Sequence record: OL615011
Strand: one strand, 5' to 3'
DNA length: 64,000 bases
Source of the DNA: Shigella phage vB_SboS_Gloob
Positions 50,871 through 64,000 of the stretch are shown here, piece after piece. Every line of letters starts with the position of its first letter. The stretch's first letter is position 1. The position numbers and the translations under genes are program-made. Below the pieces are notes generated by a model. It searched no databases, was not told the DNA's origin, and saw only the letters and a program-made list of their open reading frames with translations.

Positions 50871-51623
50871 TTATCCCATAAAGAAGTCAATCGGGTACTG
50901 CTGACCAGTACGCAGTTCTTCCTCTAAACGCTCGATCTCGCTTTCGGCTTCACTGAACATAGTATCGCCATCCAGCTCGATACCACCTGGGAGACGGATG
51001 CCTCTTGCCTTCTTGAGTACTTCAGCCCAGCGGCGCTTGACCAACGCAGTTGCATACGCCTTCAGCCACATGTCATTCCATGCTTCTTCATTACCCTCTA
51101 CCTCTGGGTCGATGTTCTGGAAACATTTGAACGCCAAAGCCTCGTCCTTTGTCAGGGCGAATTGTGGGTAGAGTTTACGCTGGAATTTCTTGTACACGAA
51201 GGTGCGCTTCACGTTCAACACACTGGTGATGTCGGATAAACGCTGTTGCATTGAAACATAGTCGATCAAGCGGATGGAAACGAGGGCGGCCTTTGGCACC
51301 AACATGGCTTGGGCCATCTGCCATTGAGGAGTTGCCCAGTTACCGATCGATTCAATCGGAGGACCGACGATGACTTCAACCACGTCGTCGATGTCTTTGG
51401 GGAATTCGATGTAACCGTTGGCGATAGTTTCTTCAGTCACCTGGTGAACAAAGAATGCGTCCTGACTGCCATCACGATGATACTCCCAAAACTTCTGTAG
51501 AGCGTCATCGACAGCGTCGGATACCTGTGATGGGTCGAGGTTGATCTGAATTACGGGTGCCCCCAATTTCTTGAGGATGTAATTCATAAACCCCTTGCGG
51601 TCTCTGATAGAATTAACGGCCAT
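50871..51623 (-). CDS. 13: neck protein (T4 gp13-like, assigned mainly by synteny)
   Basis: Position upstream of gp14; ORF track 50871..51641, start moved to the ATG preceded by AAGGGGA. Confidence 0.5.
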   Translation of the reverse strand: MAVNSIRDRKGFMNYILKKLGAPVIQINLDPSQVSDAVDDALQKFWEYHRDGSQDAFFVHQVTEETIANGYIEFPKDIDDVVEVIVGPPIESIGNWATPQWQMAQAMLVPKAALVSIRLIDYVSMQQRLSDITSVLNVKRTFVYKKFQRKLYPQFALTKDEALAFKCFQNIDPEVEGNEEAWNDMWLKAYATALVKRRWAEVLKKARGIRLPGGIELDGDTMFSEAESEIERLEEELRTGQQYPIDFFMG

Positions 51624-51951
51624 TGACGTTCCCCTTACCACTCTGGAGGTCAGATACCGTAATCCGCAGAGTTCGCACGTCGTCGGACAGACTGCTGCTA
51701 TTGAGTTTTAATTCAGCAACGTTCTGCTTGACGTAGTTGACGTCTGTGTTTAATACAGCGATCTTCTCACTCATATCGTTGACTTTGACAAGGATCTGGT
51801 CAACCTTGTTGGAATCCCGCTCAACCACATCAAGACGGTTTTCGAACTTACCCATCATCCAAACAACCGAGCCAACAGAGACTATCGCCGCCGTCAGCAC
51901 CCCGGTGAGGATCGCTTTCACATCGATCACAGTGTTAGTTTGAGTTGTCAT
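51613..51951 (-). CDS. membrane-anchored coiled-coil protein
   Basis: N-terminal hydrophobic helix (ILTGVLTAAIVSVGSVVWMMG) then coiled coil; start at the ATG preceded by AGGAGG. Confidence 0.45.
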   Translation of the reverse strand: MTTQTNTVIDVKAILTGVLTAAIVSVGSVVWMMGKFENRLDVVERDSNKVDQILVKVNDMSEKIAVLNTDVNYVKQNVAELKLNSSSLSDDVRTLRITVSDLQSGKGNVNGR

Positions 51952-52183
51952 CTTGGCCTCCTGACGGGAGTTCAATCCCGAGGTGTTCCGCCATGAGTTG
52001 TACCGTCGCTGTCAGTTGATCGATTTGCGCTGCCTGCGCTGCAATAGTTCTGTCCTTTTCTTCCTGATTTCGACGGGCGTTCAGAGCCGCTAAACCAGCA
52101 GCACTGTCTGTGCAGATGATAGCCCCAGGGCAAGAGCTACTTCTCATCATCGATGCATGCCCCTGTACTTTTACACCACGCAT
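51935..52183 (-). CDS. hypothetical small protein
   Basis: 82-aa ORF. Confidence 0.35.
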   Translation of the reverse strand: MRGVKVQGHASMMRSSSCPGAIICTDSAAGLAALNARRNQEEKDRTIAAQAAQIDQLTATVQLMAEHLGIELPSGGQDDNSN

Positions 52184-52234: not shown

Positions 52235-55200
52235 TTATGCCAGAGCAATCAAACGGAAATCTTTGAATGATGGCGGCGCTGTACGGTTGCCTCTCACCAG
52301 CAGGCGGATCTTCAGGCCAACAAACGGATTGGTGCTGTCCACAGTCTTGTCATATTCGTATTCAAAGAATGTGGAACCATCGTTGACCAGAGGGGATGTT
52401 GGAGTCACGGTTTCCCATGCCACGTCATCCATCTCCTGACCAGCGCGGAGCAGTTTCACCTGTACAGTCATTGAAGACTGAGAAGGCAGCATCGCACCGA
52501 AGTATTGCTTCAGGGTGGTGCAAGGGTTATCGAAGCCGATATCCTTGGTCACATAACTGAACACGTCTTCAAACGGATCCACCCCGTAGGTGTTGAAGAT
52601 GATAGTGAAATCATCTCCATCGATCATCGGAGCCGTGTACACGTTGCTTTCGTTACGCGTCATTGTCGCCCGCACCTGGAAGTCACCCACTTGACGATAG
52701 ATCCCTTCCGTCGGCAGCGGTACGTCCGTATCGGATTCGAACTCAGCCCAATCAGAGAATGAGTTGGAGGTCGCATCGCGGTAACGGTATTCCAGTTTCA
52801 ACACAGATCCTTCCAGCGCAGAGTTGGTGACACTTGCATAGAACATGTCCACCAAGTAGTTACCCAGGAACGACGCCTCTTCCCCGCCGATCTGGCCGTC
52901 AGAGTCCGCGTTGGAACTCAGCACGACTTTGAAGCTGGTGAATGAAGCATCAGTTACAGTGTGCTGGGTGTTCAGCTGCTCCGGTGTGAATCCACAGCCG
53001 CCAGTCAGACCAGACAGCGTCACACTCTCACCAGCAGTCAGGCCATGGCCTGGTGCGTACACGGTAACAGTGGAAGAACCGCTCACGCAGTTGACCATGT
53101 TCAAGCCCAGCGGACGGATCTTCGGACCGACCTTGGCATCGAAGGTCACGATGTTATCACCAGCACTGAAGTTGCAGCGATATACACGGAACTTCATATC
53201 GGCAGTCTGGTTTGGAGTCCAGGTCGTACCGTTTGAAGATGTGAAGAACACGCCAGTGTACGGCTGTTTGGCAATGAACTCGTTGGTCAGCAGGTTTTTC
53301 TTGCCCATCTCGGCGATGTACGCGTTGTAATCCTGGGTGTTGGCCAGTAGTACAATCGCGAATTCAGTCTGAGCCTGCAGATACACAGGGTAATCGAACT
53401 TGAACATCGTCGGCACAGAAGAGTCCGTGGAGATGGAGACTTCTGATGGGTTCAACGTCTTACGAGTGACCACAGTTGTCGCTGGAAGCCCGTTGCTCAT
53501 TTCACGTATTTCCAGAGTGATCGGGATATCTCGTGACTTGGTGGAGAAGAACACTTCGATCCCTTCGATGTACTCACCACCAATATTGGTAGCAACCATG
53601 AAGGATTGAGCAATCGGGTCTTTCCACTTCGCAACTTCAACCGTCTCCGTCTTGTTCTCTGTGGACTTGGTCGCAGTGTAACCCAGGACGCGAGTGTTGA
53701 CATAGGTCTTTTGAATGCCCTGTTTCTTACCGAAGGATTTGTGAACCGCTTCAGCATTGGTCAGGGTATCATCAGCAGACTTGCTGTCAACAGGGCTGTC
53801 GGTCAGACGGAAGACGTTGTCGCCCGTGTTGAACTTAACAGTCTCGTTCTGAGGAACTGCGAACACGCCTTTGATGTTGCCGTTGGCGTCAGTATTCAAC
53901 GCACCACCCAGGGAGCCGCCGTTGGGTGTACAGTACGCGCTAACATCACGTCCAGAGAAGAACGGATACACGCGAGTAAACGGACGCAGACCTGTGGCTT
54001 CGAAGTTGATGTTCGTTTTGCGCATGTATGGGATTACCTGCGTTTCAACGATCTGCTCGCCAGTCAGGGTAGTGGTCGTCTTGTCGGTGTACGTGTACGT
54101 GGTGACGTCACGGGTAGACACAGTCGTGCGGTAGCGGTAGCCCCACCATACGCCGCCTGCGCCATGCGGTTCCCACACACGCTCAGACACAGACACAGTA
54201 CGCCATGTGCCATACACGGAACCTTCTTTGATCGCGCCGCGTGTGTTGATCGTTTCGTTGATTACACGTGGAGCAACATAGTAGTTCTCGAACCAGTAGT
54301 CGGTGGTTGGGTTCAGTTTCAGGAAACCTTCCCAGTTGAACACCGCATATGGGTTCACGTTGATGGTCGTGGTCGCATAATCCTGGCGCACAGAGATCTC
54401 ACGGGTGTAGTTGCATACAACCATGCCATCCTGAACGTTGTTCCAGCCCACTGGCGTCAGGTCAACCGCATTCTGCTGAACGAACGGGCGTAGGCGACCA
54501 TTGTCAGTGTCGATTGAACCTACCCAGTCAGCGGACAAATCGTCGATCAGACGGAAGTCTTTGAACGGGTCGGCAGCGATACCGTTTTTGAAGCGCGGGT
54601 TGCCAGTGATCGGGTCGAACACCTGCTGAGTCATAGCTGAAGATTCCAGCTGTGACAGTGAGGTGTAGTATTCAACATTGGAGATACGGGTCTCCAGTTT
54701 ACCGATATCACGCATCGTGTAACGACGGTTGTCGATGGTACGAATCTGAATATCGTCGATGTTGGCCGTGTAAGGCGGGATCATCAATTCGTACAGACGC
54801 ATGCCGTTGTCTGGGATCGCAGGCGAAGCCAGGTTGTTGGAACTCACACCACGCGCAACGTTAAACACGCCGTTGTCGGCCAGATACACGGCATCAATAC
54901 GAGGCAGATAGTACTCCGCATCGAGGACGATGGCAGTGTTCGGGCGAACCATGTCCGTGTCGGACGCTCCGCTGGTGATCTTAGGACGGAAGTCCAGGCT
55001 GTCTGCCAGACCATACACAGTACCAGAACTGGATGAAACATAGTTCGGGATGTCTTGGTAGTCGATAGACGAATAGGAGTCCGCCGTAAAGAAGTCACCG
55101 GAGCTGTGGGCGAAATACTGATACACCACCGTGAACACGCCTGAGATGGCTCCAGTAGACGATACGAGGTTAGAACGGTAGTACGCCGCATCGCGCTGGC

Positions 55201-57073
55201 CGCCGTCCAGAGTGAAGTTCGAGGTGACGTCAGCGCCATTTGCGTTCTTCACGCTGACCAGTTTGTAGCCGTCGTGATTGTTCAGCTGTACGCTGGCCGC
55301 CGAAGTGAACGTTGCGGTCTCGGTGACTTCGGTCACAGTCTTTGTCTTGATCGTTGCTGTGGTACGCACCATCAGAGCCAACAGGTTGATGGATTGGTTG
55401 GCATAGCCAGCACCCAAAGAGATCTGGAGAGCAGAACCCACTGGTGTACCTGTCAGAGACAGTCCTGAAGAAATATCGAACTGAGCTGCAGTGCCATCTG
55501 CCTTCGCCGCCGAATACAAAGAGAATTCAGGACTGAAGCTGTAGCCCAGAGGAGCAGAGATAGAGCCTGTGCCTGCCGCACTCAACGTGATCTTGTTTGA
55601 CCGCAGGACGGTGTAGTTGATATCAATGGTTCCAGTAGGAGCCAAGGTCTTCACGCCGAATACAGGCAGAGGGAAGATCAGGTCAATCGCCGAACTCTGG
55701 CTGAACTGATTAGACTCCAGTTCGCAAGAGAACATTGTTGTACCGCTTTCTTCATAAGCGACTTTGGTCACCGTGCCCATGTCCCCAGTCACGACCAGAT
55801 CACGCATGTACAGACGGAATTCAGTACCGGAGCGCTCTGCTGAAATCAGCAGCGCCGTTGCCTGGGTCACGCTCGAAGCGTTCAGGAACTTGTAACGGAT
55901 TGTGCGAGAGACAACCGGAACCCCTTTGGAGTTCTTGGACACCAGATAGTTGCCAGTCGCAACAGCCACAGGGTTGTTGTTCAGGGTATCAGTGTCACGG
56001 GCTTTATCAATGGTGACCAGCTCTTCGCCGAGGTTTTCGATACGACGGCCACGAACGTAGGAGATCCCTGGCTTCATGACCGCCACGAATTTGCTTGCGT
56101 CACCACCTTCAGCCGGAGTGTACACGCCGCCGTTGTTGTTCTCTTTCAGATGTTCACGCAGGTCGATCTGATGCGTAGACACGTTGTAGTCACCATTGGT
56201 CTCATAGGTACGCTGAGCCATGGTGTCTTCGAGGATGTTGTACGTTGACTGGGTGACCATGGACTGAATGCGACCGTCTTTCACCTTCGCCAGTTCAACG
56301 AAGTCGGCCACTTCTTCATCATAACCGTAGCGAGACAACACGAGGTCGACGCGCAGGCGATGCGCGCCAGGCGCTTTAGAGTTCGGAGTACCCTGCGCAT
56401 TGGAATACAGGCTTTCGTCTTCTGCTTCTGTAACAATGGTTTCTGTTACTTTGAATCCAACGCGGTGTGAAGTAGAGTTGGACGCGTTATCTACGATCAG
56501 AGTAGCTGGTTCAACATCTAGGAACATACCACGAACAAAATAAACACCCTTTGTCATGCGAGCAACAATCGAACCGCCAACAGTAGCAGCCACACCATAG
56601 CCGACGCGGATGAAGTTATCGTTCACGTCGTAGGTGTTGAAGTACAGGTTATCCCCAGCTTCGAAACCGTCTGAACTACCACTCTCAGTCATCTCTAAGA
56701 TGGCATACATTGTATCCGGCTCAGCCAGGTAACGTTCCAGAGACAGGACGCGTGCTTTCGCATTGTTGTCCTTGCCCAGAACATAGAGTTCGGAGATACC
56801 TTCCAGATCAGTGAACTCGCTACCACCAGCCAGAGTGAACTTCATGGACACTGCGGTGTTGGTGATTGTCAGACCGCCGGGAATAACCATAGATCCTTCT
56901 TTGAAAAGATGGTTGCCGATCTTTTCAAGCTGGTCTTGGAAGATAGTCTGAAGCTGGTTCAGTTCACGCGTCTGTACTTTGATAGGAGCCGGACGGAACA
57001 GGATGCGTGAAAAACGCTTCTCTGGATTCCAGTCATCCCAGTACGGGCGGCGGTTGAGGTTCATTTCTTGCAT
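52235..57073 (-). CDS. giant virion structural protein (1613 aa), probable tail or baseplate-associated fibre component
   Basis: ORF track 52235..57337 runs upstream into the neighbouring gene; start moved to MQEMNLN preceded by GGAG; Thr/Ser/Gly-rich low-complexity stretches. Confidence 0.6.
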   Translation of the reverse strand: MQEMNLNRRPYWDDWNPEKRFSRILFRPAPIKVQTRELNQLQTIFQDQLEKIGNHLFKEGSMVIPGGLTITNTAVSMKFTLAGGSEFTDLEGISELYVLGKDNNAKARVLSLERYLAEPDTMYAILEMTESGSSDGFEAGDNLYFNTYDVNDNFIRVGYGVAATVGGSIVARMTKGVYFVRGMFLDVEPATLIVDNASNSTSHRVGFKVTETIVTEAEDESLYSNAQGTPNSKAPGAHRLRVDLVLSRYGYDEEVADFVELAKVKDGRIQSMVTQSTYNILEDTMAQRTYETNGDYNVSTHQIDLREHLKENNNGGVYTPAEGGDASKFVAVMKPGISYVRGRRIENLGEELVTIDKARDTDTLNNNPVAVATGNYLVSKNSKGVPVVSRTIRYKFLNASSVTQATALLISAERSGTEFRLYMRDLVVTGDMGTVTKVAYEESGTTMFSCELESNQFSQSSAIDLIFPLPVFGVKTLAPTGTIDINYTVLRSNKITLSAAGTGSISAPLGYSFSPEFSLYSAAKADGTAAQFDISSGLSLTGTPVGSALQISLGAGYANQSINLLALMVRTTATIKTKTVTEVTETATFTSAASVQLNNHDGYKLVSVKNANGADVTSNFTLDGGQRDAAYYRSNLVSSTGAISGVFTVVYQYFAHSSGDFFTADSYSSIDYQDIPNYVSSSSGTVYGLADSLDFRPKITSGASDTDMVRPNTAIVLDAEYYLPRIDAVYLADNGVFNVARGVSSNNLASPAIPDNGMRLYELMIPPYTANIDDIQIRTIDNRRYTMRDIGKLETRISNVEYYTSLSQLESSAMTQQVFDPITGNPRFKNGIAADPFKDFRLIDDLSADWVGSIDTDNGRLRPFVQQNAVDLTPVGWNNVQDGMVVCNYTREISVRQDYATTTINVNPYAVFNWEGFLKLNPTTDYWFENYYVAPRVINETINTRGAIKEGSVYGTWRTVSVSERVWEPHGAGGVWWGYRYRTTVSTRDVTTYTYTDKTTTTLTGEQIVETQVIPYMRKTNINFEATGLRPFTRVYPFFSGRDVSAYCTPNGGSLGGALNTDANGNIKGVFAVPQNETVKFNTGDNVFRLTDSPVDSKSADDTLTNAEAVHKSFGKKQGIQKTYVNTRVLGYTATKSTENKTETVEVAKWKDPIAQSFMVATNIGGEYIEGIEVFFSTKSRDIPITLEIREMSNGLPATTVVTRKTLNPSEVSISTDSSVPTMFKFDYPVYLQAQTEFAIVLLANTQDYNAYIAEMGKKNLLTNEFIAKQPYTGVFFTSSNGTTWTPNQTADMKFRVYRCNFSAGDNIVTFDAKVGPKIRPLGLNMVNCVSGSSTVTVYAPGHGLTAGESVTLSGLTGGCGFTPEQLNTQHTVTDASFTSFKVVLSSNADSDGQIGGEEASFLGNYLVDMFYASVTNSALEGSVLKLEYRYRDATSNSFSDWAEFESDTDVPLPTEGIYRQVGDFQVRATMTRNESNVYTAPMIDGDDFTIIFNTYGVDPFEDVFSYVTKDIGFDNPCTTLKQYFGAMLPSQSSMTVQVKLLRAGQEMDDVAWETVTPTSPLVNDGSTFFEYEYDKTVDSTNPFVGLKIRLLVRGNRTAPPSFKDFRLIALA

Positions 57074-57106
57074 TTTGATGCTCCATCGATAGGTGCCATT
57101 ATAGAC

Positions 57107-57116
57107 ATATTTAGTA
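57107..57116 (-). promoter_or_regulatory. late-promoter-like motif (weaker variant TACTAAATAT) upstream of the giant structural gene
   Basis: Lies between a terminator hairpin and the GGAG-ATG start. Confidence 0.35.
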
Positions 57117-57145
57117 TACAGCCAACCGAGGAATAGAAAGAAATA

Positions 57146-57163
57146 AGCCCTCCGAAGAGGGCT
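57146..57163 (-). terminator. rho-independent terminator downstream of tailspike gene A
   Basis: agccctccgaagagggct stem-loop followed by TATTTCTTTC on the minus strand. Confidence 0.55.
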
Positions 57164-57168
57164 CTGAT

Positions 57169-59631
57169 TTAGTTGACAGAATCCAGCATCGACAAACATT
57201 TCAGCTGAACTTGCACAACACTTTCGTTGGTCACGGCTGGAACAGTCAACCCAGATGCAGATATGCCGAAATTCGCTATGAAGCCTGTGGTCTGACTCCG
57301 CACGACATCTGTACCCGTGCCGCTCCCACCGTTGCAAGCAAACTGGGTCTGTTTCGAACCGAAAGCATCACCATTACCACTTACACATAACTGCCAAACT
57401 CCGCGAGGAAGAGTTCCCGGTATTGTTATGGAAGCCGCCCCCGCAGGCCTGGTGAATTTAATATTTTCAAAGAAAATAGTATCTTCAATTGTAGCCGTGT
57501 TTCGTGTTCCGAAACTCAGTGCCTGGTTTCCAACAAAACTGATGGATGTGCGACTGTCAAGAACAAAGCTAGACAAAAGCCCAGTCTGTGCTGTGACGTT
57601 ACAGTCGACGATGTTGCCGTGTGCAGTGACCGCTTTCGGAATACCCTGAATTTTGTAACCAACAGTCCGGTAATTCAGAGAAAGGTTATTCAATTGTTTA
57701 ACAGTATTCCCGATCATCTTGACTTTCTGGCCGCGATAAACCTGACCAGAAGTTGCCCCCGCATTAACGCAAATCCCCTCCGTTTTGTTATTAGAGGTAT
57801 TGCATTTCATGACCACGGTATTATGGCTGATGTCTATATCGTTGTAAACAAAGTACGAGCTGTCCCCCGCACCAGTTGCTATGGAAACACCGTCGACAGA
57901 ACGGAGTTCGCAATAGTTGTTTAGCACTTTCACGAAAGGTTCAGGATAAGTTGTGCTCGTGGGTTCACCCCCGCCCCCGACGTCGATAGACCTGGTATAC
58001 TTCGCCCCAATCAATGGACCCGTGGTCTCACTGTCTGGAATGTCGCGAGAACGGACGTAGTTGTTTGCAATTATCAGGTTATACGGCTCATAATTTGGAC
58101 TCCAGCCGACGCCACATTTGGCATAAATACCCACAACGCCGTGTTCTAAACATTGGTTTCCCGTGATGATCGCTTGTCCACCACCATGGAAATCAATACA
58201 TTTTCTACGACAATTTTGGATCTGATTGTTGGTGACTGTAACGTTTCTGACTCGGCGGTTTCGGCCGTGTGTAATGCCATACCCAGGGTCATAACTGGCG
58301 TTGACCAAGTCATCACCGGATGGATGCCCGATATCATTAATGACGTTGGCGTCGTAGTTCAGGCGATAACCAGATAGCACATAAATGCCGCCACTGTAGC
58401 ATTTACTGATAGTAGAATTGACCACCAAAATACCGTTCGGTACGTCTGAATCCACGGTGTAGTCGGCTGTCCCATAAGCAACAGCGGCGTTCCTGATACC
58501 GATACCAACCCCAGCAAAGTTGAATCCGGTTATATGACAGTTATTAATCAAAATGCCACGACATGCTCTCTGCACTTTAATCCCACACGCCCAGCTTCCG
58601 ATGTAACCACCAAGGAAAGTGCCCCAAGTGCTCCTCCAACCCGCAATTTGGGTGCCTGCGGAGTCGTAGGAAGGGAACTGCCCAGATACACCAGAATAAG
58701 CACCACTAGTGTAAGCAGAACTGTCAACTGAATTGTTGGGTCCTGTGATTTGAGCTGAATCATACCCAAAGCCAGTTTCACCTTTCTCTGCATACCCGGT
58801 GGTTGGGTCTATCGCTGGGAAAATGCTGGGTCCGGTTATCGTCAGTTGCACAGTAACGTTTTCACAATTAACTAATGATAAAGCGTCAAGTCCGTGTGTA
58901 TTGACTTTAATCGAACCATTGAATACCTTTATCCCTTTCTTGTTCACGAGCGCTAAACAAGGGCTGAAGTTTCTTGTTCCATCAGAAAAGTCAGATTCAC
59001 CGGGATATTTGTTAGCCAACGCAGGATTTTTGGACACGAGGTAATTTCCTCCACCCAAATTCAAATCCCCAGAAACTGATTCAAAGAAAGCTTGGAGGGC
59101 TAACGTGTCGTCCGTGCTACCATCACCGATAGCACCGAAGTCTTTTGGAGTCAAAATTCTTTTGGCTGGGTTAGATTGTAAAACCCAGGTAGAAGAAGAA
59201 ATGCCTCCTGTGTTAGAGACTGTGTCGTTCGCCGATACCGTCTTCGGCAGAGAACCCGCCCAACGATACAATTCCTTCCCGTCACTCACCAATTCGTTCT
59301 TGACGCGGATAGTGAATCCAGACGTAAAGTTTTCGACCAGAGTAACGAACTCCCCACGTATTACAGCCAAAGCACCCAGGTCGACAGTGCCCGTATTGTG
59401 TACAAGAATGCCGTCTGTCAGGCTGGTGATGGTAGCGCCAGCAGGCAGGTTAGAAGGTAGTGCATAGGAGCGCTGAGTGACCTTATCGTAGATTACCTTG
59501 TAACCAGTCAGGGTGGAACCTGGTTTAGCATACAGAACTTCGGACTTCTTGCATCCAAACTTGCGAGCAATGGAGTCCTTGTTTGTCTCTTTGGAGACAG
59601 AGCCTTTCGGCTGTGAAAATTGCGGATTCAT
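57169..59631 (-). CDS. tailspike protein A with pectate-lyase-like right-handed beta-helix
   Basis: DFGAIGDGSTDDTLALQ motif after the shared YRWAGSLPKTV...TGGI...W segment; ORF track 57169..59670, start moved to the ATG preceded by AGGAGA. Confidence 0.7.
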   Translation of the reverse strand: MNPQFSQPKGSVSKETNKDSIARKFGCKKSEVLYAKPGSTLTGYKVIYDKVTQRSYALPSNLPAGATITSLTDGILVHNTGTVDLGALAVIRGEFVTLVENFTSGFTIRVKNELVSDGKELYRWAGSLPKTVSANDTVSNTGGISSSTWVLQSNPAKRILTPKDFGAIGDGSTDDTLALQAFFESVSGDLNLGGGNYLVSKNPALANKYPGESDFSDGTRNFSPCLALVNKKGIKVFNGSIKVNTHGLDALSLVNCENVTVQLTITGPSIFPAIDPTTGYAEKGETGFGYDSAQITGPNNSVDSSAYTSGAYSGVSGQFPSYDSAGTQIAGWRSTWGTFLGGYIGSWACGIKVQRACRGILINNCHITGFNFAGVGIGIRNAAVAYGTADYTVDSDVPNGILVVNSTISKCYSGGIYVLSGYRLNYDANVINDIGHPSGDDLVNASYDPGYGITHGRNRRVRNVTVTNNQIQNCRRKCIDFHGGGQAIITGNQCLEHGVVGIYAKCGVGWSPNYEPYNLIIANNYVRSRDIPDSETTGPLIGAKYTRSIDVGGGGEPTSTTYPEPFVKVLNNYCELRSVDGVSIATGAGDSSYFVYNDIDISHNTVVMKCNTSNNKTEGICVNAGATSGQVYRGQKVKMIGNTVKQLNNLSLNYRTVGYKIQGIPKAVTAHGNIVDCNVTAQTGLLSSFVLDSRTSISFVGNQALSFGTRNTATIEDTIFFENIKFTRPAGAASITIPGTLPRGVWQLCVSGNGDAFGSKQTQFACNGGSGTGTDVVRSQTTGFIANFGISASGLTVPAVTNESVVQVQLKCLSMLDSVN

Positions 59632-59664
59632 AACGAATCTCCTGTTGTTATTCTCAATGGAAAG

Positions 59665-59687
59665 CCCCACTTAGTTAATAAGTGGGG
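59665..59687 (-). terminator. hairpin between tailspike genes B and A
   Basis: ccccacttagttaataagtgggg stem-loop in the intergenic region. Confidence 0.4.
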
Positions 59688-59709
59688 AAAGGAAAGGTGT
59701 AAAATTAAT

Positions 59710-61932
59710 TTAAGAAGATGCAGACCATTGTGGCATGCTGAGTGTCCACTTACCAATTGACGTCCAATAAGTAGCAGTAAATGTAGCAGTCTTAGTTGTG
59801 GCAGTATTCGCACCCGTAACATCAACAGGAACACCTGCAAAACTCAAAGATGCAATGTTACTACCACGAACCAACATATTAATTTTTTGCCCGTTATACG
59901 GTGTTCCAGACACTGTGATATTCAAACCGGAAGTCACATTTAGATAATATAATGCGTATCCCTGTCGGACATCTATAGGAAGTGTTCCAGCTGTATATTG
60001 TGCAAAGGATTGTGTACCACGGTCTACAGCCAAGCCGTCTGTGTTACCTATTGGGATAACGGTTCCGCCAGGGAATGCCCTAGCCCTTGGAATATAGGCG
60101 TAACATTGGCTTGCCCCAGAGAAATCAAACCAACGGGTTCTCAGTCCATTATTAGGAGCATGGATCACAGCCCCAACACAACCACGACCTCGATACATAC
60201 AGTCACCGATGGAATGACTATGATTTATACCGGCACAATAAAAGTCCCGGCTTCCTCCGCTTAGGTTGATATCAGCAATATCATTACGCTCAAAGTACAT
60301 TCCGTAGACGTTTGTTCCGTCTGCGCTGTCGTAAAGTCCAAACTGACTGGTGTTCTGGCTAAATCCACCTGTAATGCACACGGCAGATGTGGAAAAGGTA
60401 TTCACGTAATCGACATCAGTGCTTCCGTCAGTGCTGTTAAAAACTACGATGCCATAATCGCACTTGTTAGCAGGGTCGCCAGAGTATCCTCGATGGTCTT
60501 TAATCGTAATAGCATTCGGGCCATTAAGGACAAACAGACGTTTACCACCTATTCCACCGTTCAAAACCTCAGAGTTAGATATAATAACCCCATAACTCAT
60601 AAACTCGATTCTAATTCCGGTGTTTCCTGTTCCTAGCCCCATATCAATCCAAGGGTCGAAAACACCAGTGTTGTTTCTGGCGCTGTATAAATGCAAGCCG
60701 ATACAGTTGTTAAACCCAGAAAGGTCAATACGTATATCGTGAGTCTTACAGTTTCGAATAAAGGCGCTATTAACGTCTAATGAAGAAGCTCGTGCTACAG
60801 TGACTCCATCCGCCCCAGCTTTAATTTTTGCATTGGGATGGAAAAATACTTGGGTGTTCTGACCGAATTTAATGGTTTCTGCTGCCGTTGATACGGTGTA
60901 GTCTCCTGCATTGAAATAAATCCCACCACCAGCGGCCAAAATTGTGTTGATTTCCGCGTTGGTCATCGTCGGATAGATGTTTTTCAACGGGAAAACGCCG
61001 GTTTTAACGGCATAATCATCGAAAATAGTACCACCATACCCGCTGCCAATTAATTTAGTTCCTATATCAGAAGCCAATTGGTCACGTAAAGAATTTTGGT
61101 CTACTCGTACCCAAGCATCAACATCAATACCACCAGTGGTAACTGGAGTAGATCCGGCTACCACAGTTTTAGGCAGCGTGCCTGCCCAACGATACAATTT
61201 ACCTTCTGCCTTATATCCGACAGACTGAGAAGCCGTAATAACAGTAGCACCAGCTTCAAACGTGCCTACCATAGGCAAACCAGATTCGGCAGCTAATCGA
61301 CTCAGGATAGGATCGAGAGCACCACTGAAATTACCAGAGGCTTGTTTAAGTGTATTAATCTCCTCTTGCACCGTCTGCCCAGAAGACGTACCAATCAGAC
61401 TTGCTCCTCCATCGGAAGAGAGCGCCAGGTAATTTTGTTTGATGGACATCTCGGCCACGACCCAAACCCCAGCCGCTGGTGAACCTGTAAGGAAACTCAC
61501 AACTCCTGTTGTGCTATTGTAGGTGTAGTCAACCCCAGGAACCTGGAACTTACCATCGATATACAGGGTCTGCACACCATATGTGGTGAAGTCGGGTGTG
61601 AACGTTGTTTCGTTGCCAACGGCCTGGAACTTGTAGATTCGGATCCCGTTTTCATAATCTTCTGGGGACAGGATCTTGTCAAACAGACAGTACACAACGT
61701 CTTCTGGTTCAAGAGATCGACCGAGGTTGACAGTGTTACCATCGATTTCATAATTGTCGACAGGAACCTGGACGCCGCCGTTGATGGTGATGAAGCCCGT
61801 AACAGGATAGAACGGGAGGGAGATAAACGTCTCTCCGCCCGTTGCGGTATAAGTGTATGGAATCTGGTGCGGGGCTGTTACAACCGCTCCAAAGATACTC
61901 TCGACGTTTCTGGTCATTTGAAGATACCCCAT
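59710..61932 (-). CDS. tailspike protein B
   Basis: Contains the shared KLYRWAGTLPKTV...TTGGIDVDAW segment; alternative ATG 15 nt downstream. Confidence 0.65.
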   Translation of the reverse strand: MGYLQMTRNVESIFGAVVTAPHQIPYTYTATGGETFISLPFYPVTGFITINGGVQVPVDNYEIDGNTVNLGRSLEPEDVVYCLFDKILSPEDYENGIRIYKFQAVGNETTFTPDFTTYGVQTLYIDGKFQVPGVDYTYNSTTGVVSFLTGSPAAGVWVVAEMSIKQNYLALSSDGGASLIGTSSGQTVQEEINTLKQASGNFSGALDPILSRLAAESGLPMVGTFEAGATVITASQSVGYKAEGKLYRWAGTLPKTVVAGSTPVTTGGIDVDAWVRVDQNSLRDQLASDIGTKLIGSGYGGTIFDDYAVKTGVFPLKNIYPTMTNAEINTILAAGGGIYFNAGDYTVSTAAETIKFGQNTQVFFHPNAKIKAGADGVTVARASSLDVNSAFIRNCKTHDIRIDLSGFNNCIGLHLYSARNNTGVFDPWIDMGLGTGNTGIRIEFMSYGVIISNSEVLNGGIGGKRLFVLNGPNAITIKDHRGYSGDPANKCDYGIVVFNSTDGSTDVDYVNTFSTSAVCITGGFSQNTSQFGLYDSADGTNVYGMYFERNDIADINLSGGSRDFYCAGINHSHSIGDCMYRGRGCVGAVIHAPNNGLRTRWFDFSGASQCYAYIPRARAFPGGTVIPIGNTDGLAVDRGTQSFAQYTAGTLPIDVRQGYALYYLNVTSGLNITVSGTPYNGQKINMLVRGSNIASLSFAGVPVDVTGANTATTKTATFTATYWTSIGKWTLSMPQWSASS

Positions 61933-61949
61933 AGAGGATTTGCCAATAT

Positions 61950-61962
61950 GGGGTATTTAGTG
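61950..61962 (-). promoter_or_regulatory. late-promoter-like motif CACTAAATACCCC upstream of tailspike B
   Basis: Motif forms one arm of an inverted repeat (ATACCCCAT / ATGGGGTAT) that includes the first ATG. Confidence 0.5.
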
Positions 61963-61971
61963 AATGGATAA

Positions 61972-61987
61972 GGAGTCGCAGGACTCC
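61972..61987 (-). terminator. hairpin downstream of tailspike gene C
   Basis: ggagtcgcaggactcc stem-loop just upstream of the late-promoter motif. Confidence 0.4.
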
Positions 61988-62116
61988 CACTTGTTTTATA
62001 TGATTACGAATTTACCCAGGCTGATATCGTTAATCAGCGTAGCCACTATGTTTGCCAGTTGGGTGGTTGTTAACGTGTTCACATGACCACGCAATTGCTG
62101 GCTACAACAATGATTG

Positions 62117-64000
62117 TTAGCTTAGATTTAGACTAAACCCACCATTTGACTTGCTTATCATACCACGAACAGTTTTGTTGCCTCCACCGCTGTATTCGTC
62201 ATATTGCATTTTGACATTTACAGCGATGTTGGCGTCAATTGAATCCCATCCAGCAAAGTTCAGGAACACATTTCCGCTAGTGTCTACTGATATTGTTGGC
62301 GTGGCGGCTGTTCCTTTTGTGAACGTACTTTGCACTGAACCTTCCATTGTGCTTGCTGCTGGAGTTGTGCCCATCACCAATGTTCCCTGCAATCGCCCAT
62401 GCCATGCGCTAGAAACACCTGAAACCGGGGAGTTGGCTACAACATCAACCGTCCACAAACTTACGTTTCGGTACGTACTCACAGTGCCAATTTTAAAATT
62501 CCTGGAATCTCCAGCGGCTTTAATGAACAGCATTGAACCCGTAGCGCATTTACTTGAATCAGGCGCTGCACCTACAGATGCAAAATCAGAGAATGTGCAA
62601 TTATCAAATTTTACTTTGCTATAATCGGTAGCTGTTAACTTAGCTTCTGGCGCATTAACATTTTCGAATTTAACTCCGCCATAGTTCGCCACTGCGCCTG
62701 TAAGCTGATTGGTATTGACATATACATCACCACCATTCAGCTTTCGGACCACCAGGTCACGACAGATAAATCCGTTAATAGAATCTCCCGACGTCCAGTT
62801 GTCGTTGGTGTTGAAGTTAAAGAACCATGCATGGTTACCAGAGTCTCCGCCGCCAAGTTCTATGCGTCCGGTGATCACAATATTTGAATAACCATATCCA
62901 CGCGGGTTATTATCTGCTACAGACTCGTCAATCAGCTTTGTTGCGCCAATAACACTTCCCCAATTCCCCCCGACGACATCATAATTGATGGTTATGTTAC
63001 GCATCAGTCCGGCAATCATCGTCTCTGTTATGGTGCTGTCCCAACCCCAATCCAGCCATATTGGTGCTACGCGGTACGGAAGCGTGTAACGCCCTGTGCT
63101 ACGATATTTGTAATTGACTGTAAGATTAGATATTTGATTATCCATGTTACCGTTATAGAAATACATTTTGATTGGCGTACCCTGTTGAGTATCAATGGCA
63201 TCAACAGTTATCTGGCCACCACCACAATTGTTCGTCAGAAAGAAATCACGACGGCAACCATTATTAACTGTATGGATGTCAACTACACCAACATTACCAA
63301 GGAGATGTGGATAGCGAGTGTCATTGTTCACACTGCGAGCAAAAAGATTTTTTACATTAGTACATTCGTAGCCCTGATAGCACTTGTTAGTCTTGCCAAT
63401 AAATGTGAAATTATTGCATCCATTCAGGCGCAGCGGGGTTAGTCCGCGTTTGTCATCACCGACATACTCAAGGGTGGAAGAAGCATCCACTTCAAACACC
63501 AGATTGGTGATATTCGTCAGGTCGAACACGCGCGTCAGGTCAAATGCACCGGAGTAAAGCAGGGTGTCCCTGATAACCAGTCCGCGAATTTCAAGGCAGT
63601 CCATATTACTTAAAGTAAAGATGGTACTAAGACCGCCACTACCAGGACCAAAGTTCACAACCTGGTCAAAAATAATTTCAACACTTTTTAGGTTGTTAGA
63701 CGTGATGTAAGACTGTAAAGATTGCAGTGTACCGAATCGGGAGAAGTAAAGGACACGTTTGTTTACAACCGAATCAAGAGCATCTTTTACTGTAGATGAT
63801 TCGTATCCGACAAGACTTGCCTTTTCACCCGTCAGCAGTTCAGAACCCAGCGTTTTGCTTTCAACGCTAACCCATGCTGAAGATGATACACCACCAGTTG
63901 ATTGTGGTGTTGAGTTTTTGTCTACAGTCTTGGGCAAAGACCCACCCCAGGTATAACACTGGGCACCATTGATGTGCCACACGGCGTCGGTTGCGGTCGT
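62117..64000 (-). CDS. tailspike protein C, 5' end beyond the right window edge
   Basis: ORF track 62117..63982 begins at a GTG inside the shared motif (VWHINGAQCYTWGGSLPKTV); the frame stays open to position 64000. Confidence 0.6.
   Translation of the reverse strand, partial: TTATDAVWHINGAQCYTWGGSLPKTVDKNSTPQSTGGVSSSAWVSVESKTLGSELLTGEKASLVGYESSTVKDALDSVVNKRVLYFSRFGTLQSLQSYITSNNLKSVEIIFDQVVNFGPGSGGLSTIFTLSNMDCLEIRGLVIRDTLLYSGAFDLTRVFDLTNITNLVFEVDASSTLEYVGDDKRGLTPLRLNGCNNFTFIGKTNKCYQGYECTNVKNLFARSVNNDTRYPHLLGNVGVVDIHTVNNGCRRDFFLTNNCGGGQITVDAIDTQQGTPIKMYFYNGNMDNQISNLTVNYKYRSTGRYTLPYRVAPIWLDWGWDSTITETMIAGLMRNITINYDVVGGNWGSVIGATKLIDESVADNNPRGYGYSNIVITGRIELGGGDSGNHAWFFNFNTNDNWTSGDSINGFICRDLVVRKLNGGDVYVNTNQLTGAVANYGGVKFENVNAPEAKLTATDYSKVKFDNCTFSDFASVGAAPDSSKCATGSMLFIKAAGDSRNFKIGTVSTYRNVSLWTVDVVANSPVSGVSSAWHGRLQGTLVMGTTPAASTMEGSVQSTFTKGTAATPTISVDTSGNVFLNFAGWDSIDANIAVNVKMQYDEYSGGGNKTVRGMISKSNGGFSLNLS

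What the first reader, a model, noticed from the sequence alone, without database searches (positions are those of the whole stretch)
52235..57073. 1613-aa structural protein between the neck genes and the tailspike cluster
This very large late protein is Thr/Ser/Gly-rich with repeated beta-rich segments and lacks the motif shared by the three tailspikes. Its position suggests a baseplate or fibre hub that may anchor the tailspike array. The ORF track over-extends it by 88 codons into the neighbouring gene.
Basis: inference. Interest (0 to 1): 0.4.

Follow-up and report, generated by a model that had tools for sequence, protein, structure and literature searches.

The report
Known phage baseplate protein VriC
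This gene is the well-known, highly conserved VriC/VrlC structural protein of Ackermannviridae phages, a relative of the "tripod" baseplate protein of Staphylococcus and Listeria phages, so the finding is real but ordinary.

Summary
The ORF is real: minus strand 52235-57073, 1612 aa, 177 kDa. It has a GGAG ribosome-binding site, and the mechanical ORF is over-extended by 88 codons. It is the ortholog of vriC/vrlC of Ackermannviridae (Agtrevirus): 98% aa identity to Shigella phage Ag3 ORF206, which mass spectrometry found in purified virions. Published work already uses vriC as the conserved landmark beside the variable tailspike cluster.

It carries Pfam DUF4815. It is homologous end to end to the Herelleviridae tripod protein (phage 812 gp119, A511 gp106; hhalign E 9e-107). 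AlphaFold models match only that solved structure (Foldseek E 6e-33).

It is most likely a trimeric peripheral baseplate complex, perhaps the "prongs" seen by EM. It would turn towards the cell surface during adsorption. It is probably not the hub that anchors the tailspikes. A 2024 review already proposed this reading.

One small addition: an 82-aa gene directly downstream (51935-52183) belongs to a family that follows VrlC genes in at least five phage lineages, including A511 gp107 (hhalign 91.7%, E 8e-7).

Verdict: already known, low interest.

The parts
52235..57073 (-). vriC/vrlC coding sequence: 1612 aa plus stop, 177.3 kDa, DUF4815. Ortholog of Ag3 ORF206/gp174.
   Evidence: ORF, start, RBS. 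(Pfam DUF4815, 203 bits against a cutoff of 30). (93% nt identity over 100% of the length to SKML-39 and Ag3). (98.0% aa identity to Ag3, same length).
57081..57084 (-). GGAG ribosome-binding site, 7 nt upstream of ATG 57073.
   Evidence: Read directly from the sequence.
57098..57125 (-). Sigma-70-like promoter match (TTGGCT-16 nt-TATAAT) in the 95-nt gap between tailspike 1 and vriC. This is a consensus match only; function is not shown.
   Evidence: 10 of 12 matches. The region had fewer such sites than shuffled sequence, so the evidence is weak.
57145..57164 (-). Terminator-like GC-rich hairpin plus T-run just after the stop of the upstream tailspike gene.
56792..57070 (-). aa 2-94: conserved N-terminal block with the first predicted axial ('spine') helix (aa 39-56). 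It aligns to tripod residues 1-72.
56567..56791 (-). aa 95-169: beta-rich insertion 1 relative to the Herelleviridae tripod. Poorly conserved among distant homologs.
55964..56566 (-). aa 170-370: conserved block that includes the second predicted spine helix (aa 281-291). It aligns to tripod residues 73-252.
55337..55963 (-). aa 371-579: insertion 2, confidently predicted beta-sandwich domain(s) (pLDDT about 85-93). The 1152-aa tripod proteins have no counterpart.
53078..55336 (-). aa 580-1332: the conserved core.
- The long third spine helix (aa 787-815) lies in the most conserved stretch, DNRRYTMRDIGKLE..EYYTSLS.LE.
- Long beta-hairpins follow.
- The DPIAQSF motif and CBM-like beta-sandwiches complete the block.
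It aligns to tripod residues 308-959.
52844..53077 (-). aa 1333-1410: insertion 3, a small beta domain with the conserved HGL..GD.V motif. It gives a sub-threshold Pfam Phage_spike_2 match. It is present in cyanophage homologs and absent from Herelleviridae.
52238..52843 (-). aa 1411-1612: C-terminal beta-sandwich domain. It aligns to the C-terminal about 190 aa of the tripod protein and ends in the conserved D.R.IALA.
51935..52183 (-). 82-aa gene, 51 nt downstream of vriC. It is 100% identical to Ag3 gp173, annotated 'virion structural protein'. It is a candidate conserved partner or assembly factor of VriC: an N-terminal R-x(4-6)-G-A-I-I strand motif followed by a helix.

Best explanation
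The gene is vriC (also called vrlC), the conserved large baseplate protein of Ackermannviridae, here in an Agtrevirus-type genome.

It is an end-to-end homolog of the 'tripod' or 'pyramid' protein of Herelleviridae (phage 812 gp119, Listeria phage A511 gp106). It is enlarged by three beta-rich insertions.

Inferred mechanism:
1. Three chains assemble around three axial spine helices into a pyramidal trimer.
2. The trimer is docked on the periphery of the baseplate. It is probably the 'prong-like' structures seen by EM beside the star-shaped tailspike complex.
3. The tailspikes bind and cut O-antigen or capsule.
4. The trimers then reorient and bring their C-terminal CBM-like beta-sandwich domains onto a conserved part of the cell surface.
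5. This fixes the baseplate and helps propagate the change that triggers sheath contraction. The role would be analogous to the T4 short tail fibres, which this family lacks.

The 82-aa protein encoded directly downstream is probably a partner or assembly factor of the trimer.

Shown here: identity, homology, fold and conservation. Virion presence is shown only for orthologs, in published proteomics. Inferred here: oligomeric state, location as prongs, reorientation and surface binding.
For: Identity:
- 93% nt over the full length and 98.0-98.3% aa identity to Ag3 and SKML-39.
- Pfam DUF4815 at 203 bits against a cutoff of 30.
- Synteny of tailspike cluster, vriC, small ORFs and gp13 is the same as in Ag3.

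Virion protein:
- Ag3 ORF206, 177.2 kDa, 36 peptides (PMC3121705).
- Sajous1 VriC, 311 spectra, second only to the capsid protein (PMC10892097).

Homology to the tripod:
- The only PDB sequence hit is the 1152-aa DUF4815 chain of the phage 812 baseplate entries (E 5.7e-52, collinear).
- That chain occurs in the baseplate-arm segment A and B entries, where the tripods dock.
- Family against family hhalign gives Prob 100, E 9e-107, VriC 2-1610 against 1-1149.
- tblastn hits A511 gp106 (E 3e-36).

Fold:
- AF2 models have pLDDT 78.5 and 79.3.
- They match only the 812 chains significantly: E 6e-33 with TMq 0.47, and E 1e-22.
- The next hits are CBM22 tandem modules (E 1e-4, prob 1.0).

Conservation:
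- About 1600 aa length is kept down to 31% identity in 589 homologs.
- Conservation is even along the chain, with no hypervariable tip.
- Against Ag3 there is about 7% nt difference but only 2% aa difference.
- 52 phage records cover the whole gene. No record covers 80% of the adjacent tailspike region.

Mechanism of the solved homolog: twelve trimers, about 170 degree rotation, leg, anchor and hook domains reaching the cell wall (PMC13433997).

The prong hypothesis and the A511/812 resemblance are already published (PMC11721090).
Against: - No structure or localisation exists for VriC in any Ackermannviridae phage.
- Trimer state, copy number and position were not testable here (monomer predictions only).
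- The docking partner is unknown. The baseplate genes flanking the Ag3 tailspike cluster show no sequence similarity to the Herelleviridae arm scaffold or arm segment proteins, or to the gp8-like wedge gene that precedes VrlC in other lineages.
- The LysM-like hook reported for phage 812 is not detected by Pfam here.
- TM-scores for the N-terminal model are low (about 0.2), because of the insertions and because domain arrangement differs between the pre- and post-contraction states.
- LPS alone triggers DNA release from the related phage Det7 (cited in PMC11721090). That result does not identify a separate VriC receptor.
Confidence: 0.75

Rival explanations
1. VriC is the hub or adaptor onto which the branched tailspike complex is mounted. 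TSP4's anchor domain would bind VriC rather than a wedge protein.
For: - The gene lies immediately next to the tailspike cluster.
- Early immunolocalisation in A511 was read as the receptor-binding protein gp108 being bound to the VrlC homolog (cited in PMC4621102).
- The binding partner of the TSP4 anchor domain is still only 'believed' to be the baseplate (PMC11721090).
Against: [quoted passage not shown] The tripods are separate cargo on docking loops.
- VrlC homologs occur without any tailspike cluster, directly after a wedge gene, in ACP17, OLIVR5, S-RIM2 and S-CAM4.
- TSP2 and TSP4 carry T4-gp10-like adaptor domains that already explain the branching.
Confidence: 0.12
2. VriC is a host-range-determining tail fibre or receptor-binding protein, or a polysaccharide depolymerase, like its neighbours. 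Some GenBank records annotate it 'tail fiber protein'.
For: - Annotations such as 'tail fiber protein' and 'tail protein / putative RBP' occur in some records.
- CBM-like domains are present.
- There are weak Foldseek hits to endosialidases (prob 0.7-0.87, TM about 0.1).
Against: - Phages isolated on Salmonella, Shigella and Dickeya share at least 95% identical proteins, while the tailspikes next door are mosaic.
- There is no hypervariable distal domain.
- There is no beta-helix or catalytic Pfam domain.
- The endosialidase matches have negligible TM-scores.
Confidence: 0.05
3. As the name 'virulence-associated protein' suggests, it is a factor that acts on the bacterial or animal host and is not part of the virion.
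For: Only the name supports this. The name is inherited from VrlC of the Dichelobacter nodosus vrl locus.
Against: - It is abundant in purified virions of Ag3 and Sajous1.
- It is homologous to a solved baseplate component.
- It lies in the late structural module between baseplate/tailspike genes and neck genes.
Confidence: 0.01

Closest known systems
VriC/VrlC of Ackermannviridae (Shigella phage Ag3 ORF206/gp174, Salmonella phage SKML-39, Kuttervirus 'virulence-associated VriC protein')
   Same: - Same gene: same length (1612 aa) and 98% aa identity.
- Same position between the tsp cluster and the gp13 neck gene.
- Same downstream 82-aa gene, 100% identical to Ag3 gp173.
   Different: Only about 32 scattered substitutions against Ag3. 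The neighbouring tailspikes differ: the best record covers 44% of that region.
Tripod / pyramid protein of Herelleviridae (Staphylococcus phage 812 gp119, PDB 9EUF/9TIC series; Listeria phage A511 gp106)
   Same: - DUF4815.
- Collinear end-to-end homology (hhalign E 9e-107).
- Three predicted axial helices fall inside the blocks that align to the tripod (which 812 domain each corresponds to was not checked, because the 812 paper text read here gives no domain residue ranges).
- CBM-like beta-sandwiches and a conserved C-terminal domain.
- It is the best and only significant structural match.
- It is followed by a homologous small gene.
   Different: - About 460 residues longer, through three insertions (aa about 95-169, 371-579, 1333-1410).
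- About 19-28% identity.
- No LysM-like hook detected.
- The host is Gram-negative.
- No arm scaffold or arm segment homolog was found among the Ag3 genes flanking the tailspike cluster. In the genome order the tailspikes separate vriC from the wedge genes.
VrlC-like 'virion structural protein' of T4-like cyanophages (Kyanoviridae, e.g. S-RIM2, S-CAM4) and of ACP17 and OLIVR5
   Same: - End-to-end homology (hhalign E 4e-192).
- Insertion 3 is aligned to cyanophage residues rather than gapped, so cyanophage homologs appear to have it too.
- Same small downstream partner gene (phrog_473 family).
- ACP17 shows the order wedge, VrlC, small ORF, gp13.
   Different: These proteins are larger still (1705-2704 aa). 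They directly follow a gp8-like wedge gene, with no tailspike cluster in between.
T4 gp12 short tail fibre (functional analogy only)
   Same: - A trimeric baseplate-bound component that is stowed before infection and turns towards the cell for the second, irreversible binding step.
- It lies in the same stretch of the T4-like gene order, between gp10-like genes and gp13.
   Different: - No sequence or fold similarity.
- Ackermannviridae are reported to lack gp9-gp12 (PMC11721090).

Membership tests
Pfam DUF4815 / VrlC (VriC) family | Match to PF16075 above the curated gathering score. | tested here: met
   203.1 bits against a cutoff of 30, E 8.4e-60. PHROG 358 gives E 0.
Pfam DUF4815 / VrlC (VriC) family | Orthology to Ackermannviridae vriC: full-length near-identity and conserved position flanking the tsp cluster. 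| tested here: met
   100% coverage at 93% nt and 98% aa identity to Ag3 and SKML-39. Gene order is identical to Ag3. vriC is described as the conserved flank of the tsp cluster in PMC8432352 and PMC11721090.
Pfam DUF4815 / VrlC (VriC) family | Component of the purified virion. | not testable with these tools
   Known only for orthologs: Ag3 ORF206 (PMC3121705) and Sajous1 gp140 (PMC10892097).
Herelleviridae tripod protein (812 gp119 / A511 gp106) | Collinear sequence homology over the whole chain. | tested here: met
   - phmmer E 5.7e-52 to the 1152-aa chain of 9EUF.
- hhalign Prob 100, E 9e-107, VriC 2-1610 against 1-1149.
- tblastn to A511 gp106, E 3e-36.
Herelleviridae tripod protein (812 gp119 / A511 gp106) | Same fold as the solved tripod chain. 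| tested here: met
   - Foldseek for aa 690-1612 against 9euf_0: E 6.4e-33, TMq 0.47.
- Foldseek for aa 1-1150 against 9eui_Q: E 1.2e-22, but TM only about 0.2.
- No other PDB entry is significant for the N-terminal part.
Herelleviridae tripod protein (812 gp119 / A511 gp106) | Homotrimer built on three spine helices per chain, with a pyramidal shape. | tested here: inconclusive
   Three helices are predicted at aa 39-56, 281-291 and 787-815, inside the conserved blocks. No multimer prediction was possible.
Herelleviridae tripod protein (812 gp119 / A511 gp106) | Docked by flap-domain loops on docking loops of an arm scaffold protein; twelve trimers per baseplate. | tested here: inconclusive
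   No similarity was found between the Ag3 baseplate genes next to the tsp cluster and A511 gp104, gp105 or ISP ORF35 (BLASTP; PDB phmmer). Copy number is not testable.
Herelleviridae tripod protein (812 gp119 / A511 gp106) | C-terminal LysM-like hook that binds peptidoglycan. | tested here: not met
   No LysM match at E<=0.1. The C-terminal about 200 aa do align to the tripod C-terminus, but the model predicts a beta-sandwich there.
Herelleviridae tripod protein (812 gp119 / A511 gp106) | CBM-like beta-sandwich (base and fin) domains. | tested here: met
   After the 812 chains, the best Foldseek hits with high probability are tandem CBM22 modules (4xup, E 1.4e-4, prob 1.0).
Herelleviridae tripod protein (812 gp119 / A511 gp106) | Followed by a small gp107-like gene. 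| tested here: met
   In all 11 loci examined a 52-82 aa ORF lies directly downstream. Profile against profile gives 91.7%, E 7.6e-7.
Herelleviridae tripod protein (812 gp119 / A511 gp106) | Rotation by about 170 degrees and refolding on tail contraction. | not testable with these tools
   Requires cryo-EM of extended and contracted particles.
Ackermannviridae tailspike (TSP1-4) | Tail_spike_N domain (PF18668) and a right-handed beta-helix. | tested here: not met
   Neither is found in VriC. Tail_spike_N is found in all three upstream genes; the beta-helix Pfam domain was detected only in the 833-aa one.
   No T4 chain appears in the PDB sequence search at E<=1, nor among the top 50 Foldseek matches for either model.

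The most novel reading that the evidence does not exclude
VriC and the 82-aa protein encoded just downstream form the enigmatic 'prongs' of Ackermannviridae. They act as a tripod-like, flipping second-stage adhesin and contraction trigger on a conserved outer-membrane or LPS-core receptor. The 'VrlC plus about 70-aa partner' gene pair is an ancient baseplate-periphery module shared by Herelleviridae, Ackermannviridae, Kyanoviridae, Pootjesviridae and Busanvirus. The mechanism solved for a Gram-positive phage would then also operate on Gram-negative hosts.
Probability: 0.4. Interest if true: 0.4.

Novelty: already known. Interest (0 to 1): 0.15.

Why it matters
On its own it matters little. The gene is a textbook landmark of Ackermannviridae genomes, and its likely role has already been proposed in print. 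Its value is practical.

- It marks the conserved edge of the exchangeable tailspike cassette, which is useful for engineering host range.
- It is the obvious candidate for the still unassigned prong structures and for the missing short-tail-fibre function in this family.
- The recently solved phage 812 tripod now gives a concrete structural template for testing that role.

Tried and rejected
- Self-BLASTP for internal repeats at E<=10: none found.
- Regular-expression and Pfam search for the tailspike motif in VriC: none found.
- Full-text search for the PDB code 9EUF: no paper. The chain was instead identified through the phage 812 paper's data-availability list and the shared Cwp84-like and CBM features.
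It was repeated with 48 rows.
- Looked for the docking partner:
  - PDB sequence searches of the two Ag3 baseplate genes beside the tsp cluster gave only chance hits.
  - All-against-all BLASTP with the wedge, arm scaffold and arm segment genes of other lineages found no link to Ag3.
- tblastn with the 82-aa protein reached only Ackermannviridae. Small local HMMs gave only marginal cross-family E-values of 0.005-3. Larger profiles were needed.
- The apparently truncated third tailspike ORF was checked. It is simply cut by the window end and is not a frameshift.
- The weak Phage_spike_2 hit (19.8 bits against a cutoff of 25) and the weak endosialidase and reelin fold hits were not used for any functional claim.
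Full report
**1. What is there**

On the minus strand an ORF ends at 52235. The mechanical ORF list starts it at TTG 57337 (1700 codons). That start lies 169 nt inside the upstream 833-aa gene, whose stop is at 57169.

The real start is ATG 57073:
- GGAG lies 7 nt upstream.
- The N-terminus MQEMNLNRRPYWDD aligns position by position with the N-termini of about 100 homologs. P10, D13, Q34, R36 and E37 are invariant.

The product is 1612 aa, 177.3 kDa, pI 4.9.

Between the upstream stop and the ATG lie a GC-rich hairpin with a T-run (57164-57145) and a TTGGCT-16-TATAAT match (57125-57098). These are consensus matches only.

Composition and structure:
- Thr 10.2% and Ser 8.1% are high. Gly 7.5% is unremarkable and lower than in the neighbouring tailspikes.
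- AlphaFold2 predicts an almost all-beta protein.
- Self-BLASTP finds no internal sequence repeat.

**2. Surroundings**

Upstream:
- The three upstream genes are 57169-59670, 59710-61932 and 62117-63982. The last is cut by the window end.
- All three carry Pfam Tail_spike_N. They share the motif LYRWAGSLPKTV...TGGI..W.
- The large protein has neither that domain nor the motif.

Downstream:
- An 82-aa ORF (51935-52183) and a 112-120-aa ORF.
- Then gp13, gp14 (Pfam T4_neck-protein) and gp15.

**3. Identity**

- Megablast finds the whole gene at 93% nt identity in Salmonella phage SKML-39 and Shigella phage Ag3 (Agtrevirus, Ackermannviridae). It is at 80-92% in 50 further records.
- At protein level it is 98.0% identical, ungapped and of equal length, to Ag3 ORF206/gp174. 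It is 95.8% identical to Dickeya phage phiD3 and about 84% to Kuttervirus proteins.
- Those records call it 'hypothetical', 'virulence-associated VriC protein' or 'VrlC protein'.
- Pfam gives DUF4815 (203 bits, cutoff 30). PHROGs gives family 358, 'unknown function'.

The literature already treats vriC as the conserved landmark flanking the variable tsp cluster (PMC8432352, PMC10791037, PMC10199534, PMC11721090).

It fails for the orthologs:
- Ag3 ORF206 (177.2 kDa) was one of the six most intense bands of CsCl-purified virions, with 36 peptides and 39.6% coverage (PMC3121705).
- The Kuttervirus Sajous1 VriC gave 311 spectra, second only to the major capsid protein (PMC10892097).

**4. What it is related to**

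Sequence:
- The only solved structure found by sequence is a 1152-aa 'DUF4815 domain-containing protein' present in 15 entries of the Staphylococcus phage 812 baseplate. The match has E 5.7e-52 and is collinear over four blocks.
- Those entries include the baseplate-arm 'segment A' and 'segment B' maps, where the tripod complexes dock.
- The Bacillus phage homolog labelled 'Tail fiber/VrlC' has the Cwp84-like and CBM domains that the 812 paper describes for the tripod protein gp119.
- tblastn also hits A511 gp106 (E 3e-36) and about 1700 phage records. These cover Ackermannviridae, Vibrio phages, cyanomyoviruses, rhizobial phages and Herelleviridae.
- A local profile-profile comparison used 120 VriC-type sequences against five Herelleviridae tripod proteins. 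It gave Prob 100%, E 9e-107, running from VriC residue 2 to 1610 and tripod residue 1 to 1149. Against two cyanophage homologs it gave E 4e-192.

Insertions relative to the tripod:
- aa about 95-169.
- aa about 371-579.
- aa about 1333-1410. This one carries a conserved HGL..GD.V motif and a sub-threshold Phage_spike_2 match.

Fold:
- Two AlphaFold2 models were built on 48-row alignments: aa 1-1150 (pLDDT 79.3) and aa 690-1612 (pLDDT 78.5).
- Against the PDB they match only the phage 812 chains significantly. The C-terminal part gives E 6.4e-33 with TMq 0.47. The N-terminal part gives E 1.2e-22 with TM about 0.2, lowered by the insertions and by the different pre- and post-contraction arrangements.
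- The next credible hits for the C-terminal model are tandem CBM22 modules (E 1.4e-4, prob 1.0).
- No T4 gp7, gp10, gp12 or gp34 chain appears in either search.
- Against predicted viral structures, the named top hits are DUF4815/VrlC/VriC proteins from many phage groups.

**5. Conservation pattern**

- 589 homologs were found (E<1e-5). Among the best 120, down to 31% identity, nearly all are about 1560-1710 aa long (one is 2032 aa).
- Identity is spread evenly along the chain, with no hypervariable distal domain. The best-conserved stretch is aa about 760-840, around the long predicted helix 787-815 (DNRRYTMRDIGKLE..EYYTSLS.LE).
- Against Ag3 there is about 7% nucleotide difference but only 2% amino-acid difference, which indicates purifying selection.
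- By contrast, no phage record covers even 80% of the adjacent 6.9-kb tailspike region. The best, Ag3, covers 44%.
- Phages isolated on Salmonella, Shigella and Dickeya carry at least 95% identical VriC. It therefore cannot be the determinant of O-antigen-level host range.

**6. How it most likely works**

What is shown for the homolog in phage 812 (PMC13433997):
- Twelve trimers of the tripod protein are docked on loops of an arm scaffold protein.
[quoted passage not shown] The base and fin domains are CBM-like.
- On attachment the outer tripods rotate by about 170 degrees. The domains rearrange, and the C-terminal parts reach the cell wall.
- The rearrangement is relayed to the wedge modules and triggers contraction.
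- In A511, gp106 pyramids likewise flip towards the cell (PMC9863714, PMC11406892).

What I infer for this protein:
- VriC is a trimeric peripheral baseplate complex. It has three predicted axial helices (aa 39-56, 281-291, 787-815) in the conserved blocks, extra beta-sandwich domains, and CBM-like C-terminal domains.
- It contacts a conserved surface component after the tailspikes have processed O-antigen or capsule.

Supporting context from a 2024 review (PMC11721090):
- Ackermannviridae lack T4 gp9-gp12.
- They show unexplained 'prong-like structures'.
- The review already suggests that VriC may form the prongs, and notes the resemblance to A511 and phi812 baseplate proteins.

My results put numbers on that resemblance but do not change the picture.

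**7. Why the 'tailspike hub' reading is less likely**

- In phage 812 the receptor-binding proteins attach to the arm, not to the tripods.
- TSP4 has its own anchor domain, and TSP2 and TSP4 have gp10-like branching domains.
- In ACP17, OLIVR5, S-RIM2 and S-CAM4 the VrlC gene directly follows a gp8-like wedge gene with no tailspikes. In ACP17 the order is wedge, VriC, 68-aa ORF, gp13.
- In Ackermannviridae the tailspike cassette therefore looks like an insertion between the wedge genes and an older VrlC module.

The partner of the TSP4 anchor is unproven, so I leave this rival about 12%.

**8. A side observation that may be new**

In all 11 loci examined, the VrlC gene is followed immediately by a 52-82-aa ORF. 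The loci are the window/Ag3, BX-1, ACP17, OLIVR5, S-RIM2, S-CAM4, A511, ISP, BillyBob, Sw5 and Goe25.

These small proteins share an N-terminal motif, roughly R-D-x2-3-[ST]-G-A-[IL]-[IL], followed by a charged stretch that looks helical.

Evidence that they are related:
- The window's 82-aa protein is 100% identical to Ag3 gp173, annotated 'virion structural protein'.
- It also matches the cyanophage family phrog_473 (E 1.6e-5).
- A profile of the Gram-negative-phage members collects 660 relatives.
- That family (39 sequences), compared with the Herelleviridae gp107 family (25 sequences), gives hhalign Prob 91.7%, E 7.6e-7, with the motifs aligned.

In A511, gp107 has been suggested to be a chaperone or a part of the pyramids. 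I read the pair as a conserved two-gene module. This rests on a single profile comparison and on gene order.

**9. Verdict**

It is a baseplate-associated structural protein. It is probably not the tailspike anchor.
- The object is an already known, well-conserved gene.
- Novelty: already known. Interest: low.
- Still open for the whole family: the location, stoichiometry, partner and receptor of VriC in Ackermannviridae.

Noticed in passing
window 51935-52183 (-); also L002:9187-9408, L003:14206-14433, L004:5371-5529, L005:5295-5489, L006:5404-5610, L007:5509-5679, L008:6418-6621, L009:8209-8415, L010:7618-7836, L011:11119-11325: A 52-82-aa ORF directly follows the VrlC/VriC gene in every lineage examined: Ackermannviridae, Busanvirus, Pootjesviridae, Kyanoviridae and Herelleviridae. 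The proteins share an R-D-x-x-[ST]-G-A-[IL]-[IL] motif followed by a helix. Profile-profile comparison of the Gram-negative-phage family with the A511 gp107 family gives 91.7%, E 7.6e-7. This looks like a conserved VrlC partner or assembly factor.
   Followed up: yes
L009, L010, L003, L011 compared with L001 and window 57169-64000: In ACP17, OLIVR5 and cyanophages the VrlC gene directly follows a gp8-like baseplate wedge gene. In Ackermannviridae the whole tailspike cassette sits between the wedge genes and vriC. The cassette therefore looks like an insertion into an older wedge-VrlC-gp13 module.
   Followed up: partly
window 57074-64000 (-): The tailspike region is mosaic. The best phage record (Ag3) covers only 44% of it at 95% identity, and other pieces match Kuttervirus Det7-type tailspikes at about 91%. 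The adjacent vriC is fully covered in 52 records. This phage carries a tailspike set not present as a whole in the phage collection searched.
   Followed up: partly
window 62117-64000 (-): The third tailspike ORF seems to start inside its Tail_spike_N domain (profile position 30 at residue 2). The reading frame is open to the window edge, so the gene is simply cut by the end of the window. It is not a frameshift or pseudogene.
   Followed up: yes
window 51613-51975 (-): The ORF after the 82-aa gene (mechanically 120 aa; 112 aa in Ag3, PHROG 3961, annotated with one transmembrane helix) overlaps the 82-aa gene's end by about 40 nt. An ORF of similar size in the same position (113 aa) is present in Vibrio phage BX-1 but absent from ACP17. 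Its function is unknown.
   Followed up: no
window 57098-57164 (-): A terminator-like hairpin and then a TTGGCT-16-TATAAT promoter-like site lie in the 95-nt gap between tailspike 1 and vriC. This hints that vriC starts its own transcription unit. It is a consensus match only, and the region as a whole had fewer promoter-like sites than its shuffles.
   Followed up: no
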